64,000 nt of DNA. Source: Stylophora pistillata. Taxonomy: Eukaryota. The position numbers and the translations under genes are program-made. Shown here one piece after another: positions 39,516 to 44,983 of this stretch; position 1 is the first letter of the stretch; every line of letters begins with the position of its first letter. A model generated the notes under the pieces. It was not told the origin of the DNA and made no database searches. It saw nothing but the letters and a program-made list of their open reading frames with translations. The stretch is taken from the NCBI RefSeq assembly GCF_002571385.2, contig NW_019218015.1:98078-162077 (forward strand), read 5' to 3'.

Positions 39516-42500
39516 CTACCAATCGTTATGCGTTTTCTTTTTCTTCCTCTGCCTTCGTTGCCAAATTCGTTTCTGGGGTGGTTTAGGTGGCAGATTGGCA
39601 GCAGCCCTTCTGTCTTTATACTCTTGCCTGCACAGAGGGAAGAGGGAAGAACAAATAAGTTAAAGACCAAACATTTTCTCAGGATACGAAATGTCAAACA
39701 CAGTTGTAAAATTAACAAAAATCCCCCGATTAATCTCAAACTGACAAACCAAGACGTTGGATGCAAATGAGTTTTAGATATTTTTCCCAGATGGCTTTAA
39801 ACACTCAAAATGGTGGCCATCAATATTTTTATTATCTCTCTGATCTCCTACATTTTTGGGCAGTGTCGTGCCTGTTTTGTTTATCATTCCCTTTTCCTAT
39901 TTTTTTCATCTTGCCTTGCTGGCACTTTGCAGTATTCGCTAGGATGAAAGTATTTTACGCGTGACTGAAAATAGCTTCACCACCAAACTGGCTCACAAAG
40001 GCGGATTTACTTGTAAGCGAGAGTTAAACCGATTTTTTTTATGCAAGTGCAAGTGGCCATCTCTCTATTCCGTTCGATATAAAATTGAGAAATCTTCCAA
40101 TGCAACTCACCATTTTCGTCCAGTGAAGTTCACAATCCTCAAAAGTAACCAGTATGAGAGGAAACCAGCAATCAAGAAACCAAAATCCACAACCAAGCCA
40201 GCGAAGAATGTGTAGACACCATCATGCCAGGACAAGAAAACGAACCGAGATAGGACAATTTTCACATGTTCTGTTGAATAAACAAAAGATTTGAACATAA
40301 ATTTTTTTAATTTTAAACCACTGGAATTGTTTCTGTGTGAGACACTCCTAACTTCCTGTTGGTTTTCTTTCAAATGACTCCCTAAAATTCTCAAAAATTA
40401 TCGTTGCTAGTCTTGAAAAAATTTACAGTACATTAACAGCTTAAATATGTAGAACTCTGATGGCCATTTCATTTGGATTCGCGCACTTTTACGGCATTTA
40501 TCGATATTATTTCTCATACAGACCGAGAATGAATCAACTTTCATTGAAGACTTAAATCACTGCGCCCTCAACTGATATCATTAAGGGAAAATAAGCTTTC
40601 CACTTACCGTGTAGATAGTCCGTATAAAACTCAACCGTAGCGTCAGTGATGTAGCAGATGACAGGAACAAAGGGTTTTACGATCCACATTACCGCGTCGA
40701 ACATTATCTGGACCAGATTTACAGCTGTATTCCAAACCATTCCGATAAAGGAGTATCCTCCGTAGATGGTTGCGTCGGCCAACCATTGAATCAAATCCCA
40801 GAGAAGCTCGGCCAACCACTGGATGCAATTCCAAGCCAGTGGACCAAACCATGTTGCTCCTCTCCACGTTAAATCTGAAAGCCATCCAAGTGCCGTGAAG
40901 ATTTTCTCCGAAATCCATGTGGCTCTGCTCCAGGTCCATTCCATAGTTCCAATGCAGATATACTCAAGTACTCTCCAAACTTTACCTGTCGCCACTTTTG
41001 TCAAACCACAACATTTCTTCCAAACTCCTTAGATCACCATCATTGCAAACTCCTTGGCCCTAGTCACAGACGTCACTGTGAAGTTCCACATACGGGTTAT
41101 CAATCCAGGATTTTGAAGCTCGAAAGTCTCGTACACTGCGCATGTCTTGTTTCCAAGGTACTGAGGGATTTTGGTGCATTAGTAGATCTAACAATCAAGA
41201 TAATTTAGATACGTTTTAACGCCGAAAATGATCACAACCTCAATTCACGTTTAGCTTCGGCTAATAACCTTAACCCTTTAAATTCCAGAAGTCATAAACA
41301 TGCAACTTCGCCCCATAATGTACATAAATTATCCAGCAAACAGGTAATGAGAATACTCAAACTTATCAGGTGGAAGTTTTGATCTTGTCCTTACACCAAA
41401 TTCTCAGAACTCATTTCCAAGAAAATGTGAAGCAGCTAGAGGGGAGAATTAAAAATTACATCTTGGGAGTTTAAGGGTTAAGCATTTAATATTCAAGTCA
41501 TACTGAATAAAAAACAAACATAAACAGAAAAAAAAAAACTTTTTTAAGGTGTGATATAGTAACAGAAGGAAGAAAACCGTAGAAGTTGTTATCCTTGTTC
41601 ATTTGAATGTATTTAGAGTTGTAACTGTCAGCAGAACACAGAATAGAAACTAGGACTGTAAACTTGTTTTCCCCAGAGGCTGAACTGAGATTCTGTCGTC
41701 CGTCAAAACAAATCTACAGAACTAGAATCGTTATCATTATCCTGTGCGCCTCGACCGCTTACGAGTAAATCTCCGGAAGTCATGATATACTGAGAATTGG
41801 GAATGGGAATTTAGCAGTGAACATTCCACCAGTTAGCTCTTCTTGTACACCGTTTCCAGGTCGAATTGGAATTTGGAATGTTGGTTTATGTGAAGGGAGG
41901 AAAATCGAAAGACCTCGAGAAAAACCCTCGGATCTAGGACGCCAGGTCTGGAAGTCCAACCCGGGCCACAGCAGAGGGGGGCGAGCGCTCTCAACACCGC
42001 ATCATCCCCGCTCCTCCTTAGCACTGATGATACTTCTTGTAAGAGGGCTCACTTGCTGCCAAAGGTCACAAAATCAATGCCACGGGAGTCATAAGAACCG
42101 GAGACTTTATATTTTCTTTCAGTTTGCTCCAGTTTAACTACGCTACGTATGATCAATTGAGGCTAAAGTTAATCGTTGGAGTCGGAAACAAAAGGAAGTG
42201 TATACCTCGAGAAGCTTGGGTTTCTGGTGTCCATCGGGTTTGCTGTCAACATCAATGGAGTTTTTGTCGTAAATCAACTTCACATCAAGTTCCATGGACG
42301 GAATCTGAATCTTAACCACATGCACCTTTCAATGTAAAAGAAAATTAAACAACTGTCTTCAGAATGGAATCAATTCGCCTTCAATGCATCTCTGACTAAT
42401 GCCTCATTCACATCAACCTGAACTGTTTTGTCAAACAGTTTAAACTGTAATTTACAAAAGCTACCTACATCAATGTTTGTCGACCTCAAATTTAGCACAT

Positions 42501-44983
42501 TGAAAATACAAGTTAGTGACTAATTAAAACCTATGGAAAATTCTGTTTTTCAGTTCTCTGTATCTGATTTTCATTCAGTTAAACCCAATTTAACTTGACA
42601 TGTTTTGCTGGTGTGAATGGGGTATAAGTTTGGAGATTTTCAAGCGTTTTTAAACACCGATGACGTAACTGGTAAAAGTTTAATCTATAGCCCAGACATC
42701 GTAATCTGCTGTCTACCAACCTTGTCATTCCATTCTCTGGTCAGAATCGTCTGCTGGTTATGATCAAAGAAGAAGAACTCTTGTCTCTCATTGGCTGGAA
42801 GACTCCCTGCGTAAAATAATTGGAAAGCCTTTGGTTGGGAACAAACGCCAAGGTTCAAAATTGCAAGCTCTATTCACCATCGTTATGTGCGGCATTTAGG
42901 CCTTGTAACTCTGCTAACGTTAACTCTTGTGATAAGATGATGATGAATAACGAACCAGCCGTTGAAAGAAACGTAGAGAAGGTAACGGACTGTTAAGCGC
43001 GTGCTTAAAAAAAAAAATGATACAAAAACGTGCACGCGCTGGATGTGGACAAGACTATCTTAGCAACCGGAGACTNAAAAAAAAAACTTTTTTAAGGTGT
43101 GATATAGTAACAGAAGGAAGAAAACCGTAGAAGTTGTTATGCTTGTTAATTTGAATGTATTTAGAGTTCTAACTGTCAGCAGAACACAGAATAGAAACTA
43201 GGACTGTAAACTTGTTTTCCCCAGAGGCTGAACTGAGATTCTGTCGTCCGTCAAAACAAATCTACAGAACTAGAATCGTTATCATTATCCTGTGCGCCTC
43301 GACCGCTTACGAGTAAATCTCCGGAAGTCGTGATATACTGAGAATTGGGAATGGGAATTTAGCAGTGAACATCCCACCAGTTAGCTCTTCTTGTACACCG
43401 TTTCCAGGTCGAATTGGAATGTTGGTTTATGTGAAGGGAGGAAAATCGAAAGACCTAGAGAAAAACCCTCGGATCTAGGACGCCAGGTCTGGAAGTCCAA
43501 CCCGGGCCACAGCAGAAGGGGGCGAGCATTCTCAACACCGCATCATCCCCGCTCCCCCTAAGCACTGATGATACTTCTTGTAAGAGCGCTCACTTGCTGC
43601 CAAAGGTCACAAAATCCATGCCACGGGAGTCGTAAGAAGCGGAAACTTTCCATTTTCTTTCAATTTGCTCCAGTTTAACTGCGCTAGTTATTATCAAGTG
43701 AGGCTGAAGTTAATCGTTGGAGTCGCAAACAAAAGGAAGTGAATACCTCGAGAAGCTTGGGTTTCTGGTGTCCATCGGGTTTGCTGTCAACATCAATGGA
43801 GTTTTTGTCAACATCAATGGAGTTTTTGTCGTAAATGAACTTCACATCAAGTTTCATGGACGGAATTTGAATCTTAATCATATGCACCTTTAATATTAAA
43901 AGAAAATTAAACAACTGTCTTCAGGTTGGAATCAATTCGGGTTTTATATATCTCTGACTGACGTATACCTCATCCACACTCACCTTAACTGTTTTCTCAA
44001 ACAGTTTAAATTGTAATTTACAGAACCTACCTAAATCAATGTTTGTCGACTTCAATTTTAGCACATTGAAAATACAAGTTAGTGACTAATTAAAACCTAT
44101 GGAAAATTCTGTTTTTCAGTTCTCTGTATCTGATTTTCATTCAGTTAAACCCAATTTAACTTGACATGTTTTGCTGGTGTGAGTGGGGTATAAGTTTCGA
44201 GATCTAGATTTCCAAGCGTTTTAAAGCACCGATGACGTAACTGGTAAAAGTTTAATCTATAGCCAAGACATCGTAATCTGCTGTCTACCAACCTTGTCAC
44301 TCCATTCTCTGGTCAAAATCGTCTCGTGGTTGTGATCAACGAAGAAGAACTCTTGTCTCTCATTGGCTGGAAGACTCCCTGCGTAAAATAATTGGAAAGC
44401 CTTTGGTTGGGAACAAACGCCAAGGTTCAAAATTGCAAGCTCTATTCACCATCGTTATGTGCGGCATTTAGGCCTTGTAACTCTGCTAACGTTAACTCTT
44501 GTGATAAGATGATGATGAATAACGAACCAGCCGTTGAAAGAAACGTAGAGAAGGTAACGGACTGTTAAGCGCGTGCTTAAAAAAAAAAATGATACAAAAA
44601 CGTGCACGCGCTGGATGCGGAAAAGACTATCTTAGTAACCGGAGACTTGTTTTCCAAAAAGCGAGCACCAAGTGCTCAGTTGTTAGGGAAATGAGCAATT
44701 CTAGCTCAATTAAGGGTTGGCGTAATCTTCCTTGCTTTATCCGTCAACGAAAGCAACTAAACCATTGGTTAGAAGAATGAAATCTGTTTCTTATCAAGAA
44801 TGAGAATAACACAACATTTCAGTTCTTAAAACCGCAGTATTTTTTCCGCGCACGAAAAACTTCCGAAAAATTTGAAAATTGTTCCCAAAAAACGTTAAAC
44901 TTACCTTCCAGTCTAGAACCATGTGTAGCATTTGAAAGAAAAAATGCAAATGAAAGCGCTAAAAGCGCAGTCACCCACTTCAT
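39516..44983 (-). pseudogene. Nested antisense gene for an uncharacterised type-I-like membrane protein (~378 codons) with a Trp 11-mer repeat; two in-frame stops. Exons: 44905-44983, 44293-44378 (or 42721-42806), 43747-43887 (or 42206-42325), 40608-41187, 40111-40270, 39516-39627
   Basis: Signal-peptide exon MKWVTALLALSFAFFLSNATHG, phase-consistent GT-AG exons, hydrophobic TM segment (VYTFFAGLVVDFGFLIAGFLSYWLLL) and basic tail ending KKKKTHNDW*. TAA stops at 41179-41181 and 41029-41031. Confidence 0.7.
41527..44646. repeat. ~1.55 kb direct repeat (41527-43075 / 43077-44646) joined by a single N
   Basis: Both copies start with a poly-A run followed by ctttttttaaggtgtgatatag and end accggagact. 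The N at 43076 suggests allelic contigs joined in the assembly. Confidence 0.8.

What the first reader, a model, noticed from the sequence alone, without database searches (positions are those of the whole stretch)
39516..44983. Hidden antisense gene nested in a POMT1 intron, with a strict 11-residue Trp repeat
Six phase-compatible exons give a signal peptide, a small ectodomain, a long amphipathic tract, a TM helix and a basic tail. The tract has W every 11 residues (W-ISEKIFTALG-W-LSDLTWRGAT-W-FGPLAWNCIQ-W-LAELLWDLIQ-W; ~40770-40920) and a second W at +6. An 11/3 periodicity is known from lipid-binding amphipathic helices (apolipoproteins, perilipins, synucleins) and from phage tape-measure W/F repeats. 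I do not recognise this architecture in any animal family; a membrane-shaping or lipid-binding role is inference. This copy carries two TAA stops.
Basis: partly seen in the sequence, partly recalled or inferred. Interest (0 to 1): 0.72.

Follow-up and report, generated by a model that had tools for sequence, protein, structure and literature searches.

The report
Coral membrane protein with tape-measure repeats
This is a stop-codon-broken copy of a real but unstudied stony-coral gene family whose predicted membrane-anchored protein carries a long, tryptophan-striped helix that repeats every 11 residues like phage tail 'ruler' proteins and likely lies along a lipid surface.

Summary
The gene is real. 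Six GT-AG exons give a predicted type I membrane glycoprotein: signal peptide, small beta-rich head, a 137-residue 11/3 amphipathic tract, TM helix and basic tail. Hydrophobicity peaks at 3.68 residues per turn (p=0.003); Trp lag-11 pairs are 6 against 1.4 in shuffles (p=0.001). This copy has two TAA stops; a near-identical spliced record and another run's contig lack them. NCBI lists it as two split uncharacterised genes. The family has at least 9 copies in this genome (5 with stops) and members in Pocillopora and Oculina, with no Pfam, NCBIfam or natural PDB match. Nesting is local: the host is a decaying duplicate of POMT1 exons 14-21, and 7 of 9 copies show no POMT1 in their fetched flanks. 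The repeat (WNGVxWLAExI) aligns in register with phage tape-measure repeats (WNGIKSFASTI), and tract length varies by 11, 7 and 4 residues. Trp flanks the hydrophobic face, favouring a lipid-surface helix (inferred, 0.45) over a coiled-coil stalk (0.3). Phage origin is not excluded (0.15). The scan had not met this family, but noted tape-measure-type Trp repeats beside membrane helices in two other genomes.

The parts
45065..45094 (-). Promoter motif pair (TGCGTCA ... TGACGTCA-like; CRE/ATF-like by recall) about 80-110 nt upstream of the ATG; this copy has one change in the second site
   Evidence: Visible in 6 of 7 aligned upstream regions of family copies; function untested
44905..44983 (-). 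Exon 1: predicted signal peptide
   Evidence: ATG, GT donor; same exon in paralogues and Pocillopora/Oculina proteins; no signal-peptide predictor was run
44293..44378 (-). Exon 2, upstream copy of the tandem duplicate
   Evidence: AG/GT, phase 1 to 0
43747..43887 (-). Exon 3, upstream copy (with a 7-codon internal duplication); beta-rich head
   Evidence: strands predicted at low confidence
42721..42806 (-). Exon 2, downstream copy
42206..42325 (-). Exon 3, downstream copy
41529..44647 (.). 1.55-kb tandem duplication holding exons 2-3 twice, joined by one N: two alleles concatenated by the assembly, or a real duplication
   Evidence: 93.2% over 1580 nt; spliced records P0112 and P0133 use one exon 2-3 set
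40608..41187 (-). Exon 4 (580 nt): Cys/N-glycan motif and the whole repeat tract in one exon
41179..41181 (-). Premature TAA stop 1 (codon 98)
   Evidence: sense codon in P0112, in the neighbouring copy and in an X1 contig
41140..41151 (-). Conserved N-x-T-C motif (predicted N-glycosylation site; argues for a luminal or extracellular position)
   Evidence: 12 of 15 members by script, a 13th (P0087) by eye
41029..41031 (-). Premature TAA stop 2 (codon 148)
   Evidence: absent in P0112, P0113, P0114 and the X1 contig; kept in a 98%-identical contig of run X17, read from depth arithmetic
40678..41088 (-). 11/3 amphipathic tract, residues 129-265
   Evidence: peak 3.68 residues/turn, p=0.003; one continuous predicted helix in an Oculina member, block pLDDT 68-91
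40783..40917 (-). Strict Trp-11 run (five Trp) with the second Trp row at +6
40111..40270 (-). Exon 5: predicted single TM helix (residues ~306-337) and basic juxtamembrane helix
   Evidence: Kyte-Doolittle segment above 1.6 at this place in 9 of 9 members scanned
39516..39627 (-). Exon 6: Pro-rich, polybasic predicted cytosolic tail and stop
   Evidence: 7-8 K/R in the last 16 residues; conserved to Oculina
37221..49011 (+). Host: partial tandem duplicate of POMT1 (exons 14-21 only); the gene lies between duplicate exon 17 (38775-38872) and exon 18 (45743-45859)
   Evidence: splice sites of exons 19 and 20 lost; RT fragment inserted
16102..32870 (+). Full POMT1, 21 coding exons, 774 aa; intron 17 (28948-30185) contains an N gap at 28995-29991
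   Evidence: model; Pfam PMT, MIR, PMT_4TMC hits on its exons

Best explanation
The window holds a nonsense-broken copy of a six-exon stony-coral gene family whose intact members encode a predicted type I membrane glycoprotein, and its 107-189-residue 11/3 helix likely lies along a lipid surface, held by two rows of tryptophan. Shown: exon structure, family, purifying selection, period, residue layout, stops, and that nesting is not shared by most copies. Inferred from established membrane-protein rules: the signal peptide and the N-x-T-C site put head and tract in the lumen or outside the cell, and the TM helix and basic tail fix the protein with the tail in the cytosol. Inferred mechanism: aliphatic residues sink into the outer leaflet, Trp sits at the headgroup boundary on both flanks, and a narrow Glu/Asn stripe faces water. 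The tethered helix would thus coat, stiffen or bend its own membrane's luminal face, or grip an apposed membrane or lipid particle; gaining or losing 11, 7 or 4 residues changes the covered length without turning the face. Frequent duplication and loss suggest a role at a changing interface such as host-microbe contact (weak inference). This copy is likely a null allele that was copied in a tandem duplication together with the POMT1 3' end.
For: Gene and family: C333 paralogue spliced from six exons equals NCBI protein P0102; full-length spliced records P0133/138/139 (379 aa, 73% identical for P0133) and P0112 (94%; 25 of 33 diagnostic sites like this copy, 5 like the neighbour copy); dN/dS 0.42, CI 0.31-0.55 against C333. 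Period: peaks at 3.63-3.73 in 13 of 13 members; W lag-11 p<=0.0075 in 12 of 13. Layout, with phase set by aliphatic residues alone in 11 members (overlapping windows, each residue counted about twice): Trp within 45 degrees of the face centre in 4 of 254 counts, mean offset 114 degrees; Asp/Glu opposite the face in 113 of 139; Lys/Arg mean offset 121 degrees. 3-11 helices of 3.67 residues/turn are typical of apolipoproteins, synucleins and perilipins (PMC6164224, passages). Trp is common on the surface of membrane-active proteins and contacts headgroup mimics (PMC10354048, passages). Alpha-synuclein chains are 11 of the 16 PDB rows at E<=10 (E 1.1-2.5, not significant). All 86 pairwise gaps of 3 or more residues were 4, 7, 11 or 15 long (pairs, not events).
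Against: No binding, localisation or topology data exist. 11/3 period and 4/7/11 indels fit hendecad coiled coils equally well (PMC4786415, passages), and the one significant PDB hit is a designed 11-residue-repeat helical bundle (4UOS, E 3.8e-8). The closest natural sequences are tape-measure repeats, which measure tail length and whose Trp/Phe are described as anchors for auxiliary proteins (PMC3271669, passages). The tract is near neutral in net charge (-2 to +3 in 4 members) and 14% Trp, unlike perilipin or synuclein repeats (recalled). One search also counted 84 gaps of 1-2 residues, and P0001 fails the W lag-11 test (p=0.33). Weaker hydrophobic segments just before the TM in several members leave a multi-pass topology possible. 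Full-length AlphaFold model is poor (pLDDT 45.8). Raw RNA reads gave no splice joint: X21 had no exon coverage, X24 depth at most 3.4 and also over introns, so expression in those samples is low or absent. dN/dS against the neighbour copy is 0.70 with CI 0.41-1.36.
Confidence: 0.45

Rival explanations
1. Ruler or stalk: several copies wind the tract into a slightly right-handed hendecad coiled coil that stands 16-28 nm off the membrane and presents the small beta-rich head; repeat number sets the distance, as tape-measure proteins set tail length.
For: Consensus in register with tape-measure repeats, best of 22 registers even without the Trp columns; PHROG tape-measure profiles down to E 2.7e-6; designed hendecad bundle 4UOS E 3.8e-8; Cys-to-ProPhe distance 107-189 residues in the 13 of 21 members where it could be measured, at most one Pro in the tract; one continuous predicted helix; stutters of 4 give 11 and 18 periods (PMC4786415, passages); small Ala/Gly beside the aliphatic centre.
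Against: Trp is excluded from the centre of the hydrophobic face, so a two- or three-helix stalk would expose two Trp rows along its length; only a high-order bundle or a partner could bury them (inference). The head is short and poorly conserved, and a 112-aa relative lacks head and tract entirely (P0034).
Confidence: 0.3
2. Membrane-inserting effector: the tract inserts into or fuses an apposed membrane (microbe, symbiont or neighbouring cell), with the Glu/Asn stripe lining a pore, as proposed for ejected tape-measure proteins.
For: Hydrophobic arc of about 230 degrees with a narrow polar stripe; birth-and-death evolution, 5 of 9 copies with stops; tape-measure proteins are discussed as membrane channels (PMC5099701, passages); CRE/ATF-like promoter motif (motif identity recalled).
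Against: No Pro-broken hairpins; net charge near zero, unlike cationic lytic peptides (comparison recalled); no match to pore-forming or fusogen families; in TP901-1 the infection-critical parts are separate hydrophobic regions, and one repeat could be replaced by alanines (PMC5099701, passages).
Confidence: 0.12
3. Multi-pass or re-entrant membrane protein: the distal tract and the segment before the TM form extra membrane-embedded helices of a small channel or scaffold.
For: Extra Kyte-Doolittle segments of 1.64-1.95 upstream of the TM in this copy, P0102, P0001, P0147 and P0152.
Against: Absent in P0133, P0155, P0159, P0162; charges recur every 11 residues along the tract; length changes freely.
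Confidence: 0.08
4. No functional protein: a decaying repeat-derived or mis-assembled sequence.
For: Two stops here, 5 of 9 copies broken, duplicated exons joined by an N, no spliced raw reads.
Against: Intact six-exon paralogues (P0102, P0162), spliced full-length records, dN/dS 0.42, conserved promoter motif, members in three coral genera.
Confidence: 0.03

Closest known systems
Trp/Phe-marked 11-residue repeats of siphophage tail tape-measure proteins (Belcaid 2011, PMC3271669; TP901-1, PMC5099701; passages read)
   Same: 11-residue unit in register (coral WNGVxWLAExI, four phage proteins WNGIKSFASTI); mixed 11 and 18 spacing; variable unit number; helical; nearby hydrophobic segments.
   Different: Two Trp per unit instead of one and a Glu in the polar stripe; 107-189 residues, not about 1000; signal peptide, glycan site, introns, C-terminal TM and basic tail; similarity stays at 20-33%, P0133 best E 2, P0152 none at E 0.01; no viral context.
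3-11 amphipathic helices of alpha-synuclein, perilipins and exchangeable apolipoproteins (PMC6164224, passages)
   Same: 3.67 residues/turn; acidic residues opposite the hydrophobic face and basic ones towards the flanks (class A description recalled).
   Different: No significant sequence match (synuclein E 1.1-2.5; Pfam Synuclein E 0.32 in 1 of 22 members); 14% Trp; permanently TM-anchored and predicted luminal; no Pro-punctuated 22-mers.
Hendecad (11/3) coiled coils, e.g. designed bundle PDB 4UOS (PMC4786415, passages)
   Same: Period, and indels of 4, 7 and 11.
   Different: Bulky Trp on both flanks rather than a charged surface; oligomer not shown.
NCBI uncharacterised coral proteins (Stylophora LOC111333923, LOC111333925, LOC111337428, LOC111327384, LOC111323509; Pocillopora XP_058942775, XP_027059991, XP_027057410; Oculina XP_078373145, XP_078373359, XP_078373590)
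   Same: These are the family itself; P0016 and P0163 are this copy, split at the stops.
   Different: No name, domain or function is attached; no paper in the library names six of the LOC ids or six further ids.

Membership tests
Phage tail tape-measure protein | Run of seven W/F markers 11 apart (Belcaid pattern 1) | tested here: inconclusive
   Met in 5 of 21 members; this copy has five markers; pattern 2 in 0 of 21
Phage tail tape-measure protein | Repeat consensus alike in register and direction | tested here: met
   Best of 22 registers; forward above reversed in 24 of 24 pairs and 4 of 4 HMM tests; the four phage proteins were picked from hits of P0077, so the test is biased
Phage tail tape-measure protein | Encoded in a phage tail module, without introns, at tail-length scale | tested here: not met
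   Six spliceosomal exons in a coral genome, about 380 aa; no relative in viral contigs
Phage tail tape-measure protein | Similarity beyond the repeat | tested here: not met
   Family HMM matches cover profile positions 113-258 only; P0133 best phage E 2 over residues 180-307
Synuclein / perilipin / apolipoprotein 3-11 helices | 3.67-residue hydrophobic period | tested here: met
   3.68 in this copy; 3.63-3.73 in 13 of 13
Synuclein / perilipin / apolipoprotein 3-11 helices | Family profile match (Synuclein, Perilipin, Apolipoprotein, ApoL) | tested here: not met
   No Pfam match at cut-off in 22 of 22 members; Synuclein E 0.32 in one
Synuclein / perilipin / apolipoprotein 3-11 helices | Lipid-induced folding and reversible lipid binding | not testable with these tools
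   needs CD and flotation
Hendecad coiled coil | 11/3 period with face-preserving indels | tested here: met
Hendecad coiled coil | Homo-oligomeric bundle | not tested
Type I single-pass membrane glycoprotein | N-terminal signal, luminal sequon, one C-terminal TM, positive-inside tail | tested here: met
   By hydropathy and motif only; no SignalP/TM predictor; in this copy the 13-residue h-region did not pass the 19-residue threshold
Nested intronic gene of POMT1 | Lies inside an intron of a functional host gene | tested here: inconclusive
   Host here is a partial decaying duplicate; the matching intron of the full gene is an N gap
Nested intronic gene of POMT1 | Nesting shared by the family | tested here: not met
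   7 of 9 copies have no POMT1 match in 9-39 kb fetched per locus, parts of it N; orthologues in other species not testable (searches found none)

The most novel reading that the evidence does not exclude
Stony corals captured a phage tape-measure repeat as a single exon, fitted it between a signal peptide and a membrane anchor, and expanded it into a family of length-tunable cell-surface rulers or membrane-gripping rods, set in steps of 11, 7 and 4 residues.
Probability: 0.15. Interest if true: 0.85.

Novelty: new variant of a known kind. Interest (0 to 1): 0.5.

Why it matters
It defines an unnamed, fast-turning-over membrane protein family of reef corals with an unusually clean physical design: an 11/3 helix with two Trp rows, whose length varies naturally from about 107 to 189 residues. 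The paralogues form a ready-made length series for an open question, namely what makes an 11-residue repeat a lipid-surface helix (synuclein type) or a coiled-coil ruler (tape-measure type). If the repeat came from a phage it would be a rare case of a structural phage module reused in an animal surface protein. The POMT1 nesting, by contrast, adds little: it looks like a local accident of position and tandem duplication.

Tried and rejected
Family libraries: Pfam and NCBIfam gave nothing at cut-off for the family; PHROGs gave only tape-measure profiles over the repeat and weak unknowns. PDB sequences: nothing for the narrow profile (best E 0.17); the wide profile gave 4UOS and non-significant synuclein rows. 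ESM Atlas: best 0.75, a viral Peptidase_S39 cluster, below the chance range; no usable hit for P0152. AlphaFold models are weak (pLDDT 45.8 and 57.7); Foldseek found 0 matches at E<=0.001 and VIA-align only generic long helices, Z<=7.0, so the head's fold is untested, not new. Complex prediction for a homotrimer was not available; no verdict. Viral contigs (10 and 6 pattern stretches, none confirmed) and JGI metagenomes (81 and 217 stretches, none confirmed) held no relative. The third homologue search scored only the 7993 best word-sharing candidates and added two Stylophora proteins. RNA reads were laid on 39480-41480 only, 4 of 24 listed runs, so exons 1-3 were not examined; X24's few reads had the first mate on the minus strand and covered introns, which fits POMT1-sense pre-mRNA or DNA and is not counted as expression. 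The tree is the quick version, not the finished search. An ER-retrieval KKxx signal was considered; the lysine positions vary and it is not supported. Literature: 9 searches found no paper on the family; main texts only, so supplementary expression or proteome tables that list these gene ids could have been missed.

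
Full report
Observation. The minus strand carries exons at 44983-44905, 44378-44293 (again 42806-42721), 43887-43747 (again 42325-42206), 41187-40608, 40270-40111 and 39627-39516, with AG/GT ends and matching phases (exon 3 end corrected by one base). With one exon 2-3 pair they give 378 codons with TAA at codons 98 and 148. Using both pairs shifts the frame between them (and exon phases). The two pairs lie in a 1.55-kb tandem repeat, 93% alike and joined by one N. 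Five Trp stand exactly 11 residues apart and three more at +6. Over residues 129-265 there are 6 Trp lag-11 pairs against 1.43 in 2000 shuffles (p=0.001), and hydrophobicity peaks at 3.68 residues per turn with power 12.7 at 3.67, 0.4 at 3.6 and 0.9 at 3.5 (p=0.003).

Host. I built POMT1 from the window: 21 coding exons, 16102-32870, 774 aa, no internal stop, with PMT, MIR and PMT_4TMC hits on its exons. But the 3' part of POMT1 (exons 14-21) is present three times on the contig. The finding sits in the second copy, which lacks exons 1-13 and has lost the exon-19 donor and exon-20 acceptor; the third copy has a 2-nt deletion in exon 16 and holds another copy of the nested gene whose exons 3-5 are open. 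In the full gene the flanks of intron 17 match the flanks of the nested gene, but the middle is a 997-N gap. The gene may therefore have sat in the ancestral intron 17; this is inference and unresolved.

Family in this genome. Two searches found exon 4 at nine places: this copy, its neighbour, C333, C328, two on C100, C49 and two on C176 (lower bounds). Five carry premature stops (this copy, C328, both C176 copies, C49). C333 splices from six exons into NCBI protein P0102, and the exons of one C100 copy match P0162. The other C100 copy is unreliable as served. POMT1 matched only the C232 region among nine stitched regions, so the seven copies elsewhere are not nested in it within the flanks fetched. 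dN/dS is 0.42 (CI 0.31-0.55, 362 codons) between this copy and C333, and 0.70 (CI 0.41-1.36) against the neighbour. A motif pair about 100 nt upstream of the ATG is visible in 6 of 7 aligned upstream regions; its likeness to CRE/ATF sites is recalled.

Family elsewhere. Named relatives come from Stylophora pistillata, three Pocillopora species and Oculina patagonica. The exhaustive profile search gave 52 hits; 9 carry names, all from those genera, 15 are unnamed ENA or Logan records, and 28 were not looked up. No Acropora, Porites or anemone name appeared, but the range is not closed. NCBI annotates this very copy as two proteins split at the stops (P0163 and P0016). The quick tree shows three pocilloporid subfamilies and an Oculina-type group; this copy groups with P0112, the neighbour copy and P0133/P0019 at 100% SH-aLRT.

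Stops and expression. P0112, a 313-aa Logan record that joins exons 3-6, is 94% identical, open at both stops, and agrees with this copy at 25 of 33 sites that separate it from the neighbour. P0133, P0138 and P0139 are full-length 379-aa records on contigs of 1.3-1.5 kb, so they are spliced. In one search a 591-nt contig of run X1 with 19 differences reads other letters at both stops, while a 263-nt contig of X17 with 6 differences keeps the second stop (read from depths: 98.7 of 273 differ). The stops are thus likely a real allele, not only an assembly error. Against strong expression: raw reads of X21 (about 2 in 100 read) did not cover the exons, X24 reached depth 3.4 at most and covered introns too, and no splice joint was seen.

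Anatomy. A TM-like segment lies at the same C-terminal place in 9 of 9 members scanned, followed by a Pro-rich, K/R-rich tail; weaker hydrophobic segments precede it in five. An N-x-T-C motif is kept in 12 of 15 members by script. The repeat consensus is W-L-A-E-x-I-W-N-G-[AVLI]-x from 65 units chosen by their two Trp. The period holds in 13 of 13 members (3.63-3.73) and the Trp lag-11 test in 12 of 13; automatic tract ends overran in five members. With the helix phase set by aliphatic residues only, Trp avoids the face centre (4 of 254 counts within 45 degrees), Asp/Glu lie opposite it (113 of 139) and Lys/Arg lie towards the flanks (11 members, overlapping windows). The tract measures 107-189 residues in the 13 of 21 members where both anchors were found; pairwise gaps of three or more residues were 4, 7, 11 or 15 in 86 of 86 cases, beside 84 gaps of 1-2 residues. 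AlphaFold gives one unbroken 66-residue helix for the tract of an Oculina member (block pLDDT 68-91) and only low-confidence strands for the head.

Mechanism. The layout is that of a helix more than half buried, with Trp at both boundaries. Long 3-11 helices bind lipid surfaces in apolipoproteins, synucleins and perilipins (PMC6164224, passages), and surface Trp contacts headgroup mimics in a membrane-active protein (PMC10354048, passages). I therefore favour a tethered luminal or extracellular helix that lies along a lipid surface (0.45). The same period and indel sizes describe hendecad coiled coils (PMC4786415, passages), and the only significant PDB match is a designed bundle whose 11-residue repeat is visible in the alignment (4UOS, E 3.8e-8), so an oligomeric stalk of variable length stays a strong rival (0.3). 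Membrane insertion (0.12) and multi-pass topology (0.08) are less likely. None of these is shown.

Comparison with tape-measure proteins. Members with clean repeats hit several PHROG tape-measure profiles (best E 2.7e-6), and P0077 matched 730 phage records at E<=10, with 16 of the 20 listed annotated as tape-measure proteins and a best listed E of 2e-9. Four of these were fetched. Their unit, WNGIKSFASTI, aligns with the coral unit WNGVxWLAExI as the best of 22 registers, also without the Trp columns (3.7 against 1.4 for the next), and forward scores beat reversed ones in 24 of 24 pairs. These four were chosen because they matched, so the test is biased. Tape-measure repeats have 11 or 18 residues with Trp/Phe markers (PMC3271669, PMC5099701, passages); Belcaid's pattern 1 is met by 5 of 21 members. 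But the match ends at the repeat, the orthologue of this copy scores E 2 at best, P0152 has no phage match at E 0.01, and an unrelated-looking 191-aa Logan protein has the same double-Trp unit before a TM (P0099). Two earlier scan notes report such repeats beside membrane helices in other genomes (not checked). Convergence on a simple helical module is the default; capture from a phage is not excluded (0.15). The protein is not a member of the tape-measure family, nor of the synuclein, perilipin or apolipoprotein families.

Verdict. A real, unnamed coral membrane-protein family with a striking repeat; this copy is a likely null allele; the nesting is incidental or at most subfamily-specific. 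No paper in the library names it (supplements not searched). New variant of a known kind; interest 0.5.

Noticed in passing
window 62791-63207 (-): ORF with a pesticin-type lysozyme domain (Pfam PF16754, E 3.9e-9, first 44 profile positions) in a coral genome; looks like an exon of a longer gene, possibly a bacterial-type lysozyme acquired by transfer.
   Followed up: no
window 9105-11807 (+): 901-residue stop-free frame that reads like topoisomerase III beta without introns (name recalled from the sequence), directly upstream of POMT1.
   Followed up: no
window 46273-47178 (+): Reverse-transcriptase fragment (RVT_1, E 3.6e-20) starting at the end of duplicate POMT1 exon 19, where the splice donor is lost.
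   Followed up: partly
window 53400-57000 (+): Fragmented ORFs with integrase-like wording near 54646-55044 and an unknown 255-aa frame at 56057-56821 (no Pfam hit); may be a decayed large mobile element.
   Followed up: no
window 63481-63999 (+): THAP-domain ORF (E 2.1e-11) running off the window end, head to head with the pesticin-like ORF.
   Followed up: no
locus L032 (contig C100 of G000): About 12 kb around one paralogue carry runs of seven T on an exact 42-base lattice, replacing conserved codons without changing length; this looks technical, not biological, and makes that copy's sequence unreliable.
   Followed up: partly
L048:9160-9460 (G000:C42, minus strand): Orphan exon 1 and promoter motif of the family with no further exons found in 25 kb, of which 7 kb are N; an exon-5-like piece also lies on the 1-kb contig C5165.
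   Followed up: partly
proteins P0034 and P0145 (Logan, 112 aa): Short relatives made of signal, TM and tail parts only, with no head and no repeat: a splice form or a repeat-less ancestor-like gene.
   Followed up: no
L014 (G000:C328:368143-368760, minus strand): Broken paralogue in which the repeat runs on for extra near-perfect units and joins the tail exon directly, with the TM exon deleted.
   Followed up: partly
protein P0099 (Logan, 191 aa, 35 contigs): Small unnamed protein, unlike the coral family outside the repeat, with the same double-Trp 11-residue unit and a C-terminal hydrophobic segment; hits tape-measure profiles at E 4e-6.
   Followed up: partly
window 41290-41480: Very abundant short repeat in intron 3, hundreds-fold covered by RNA reads on both strands.
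   Followed up: no
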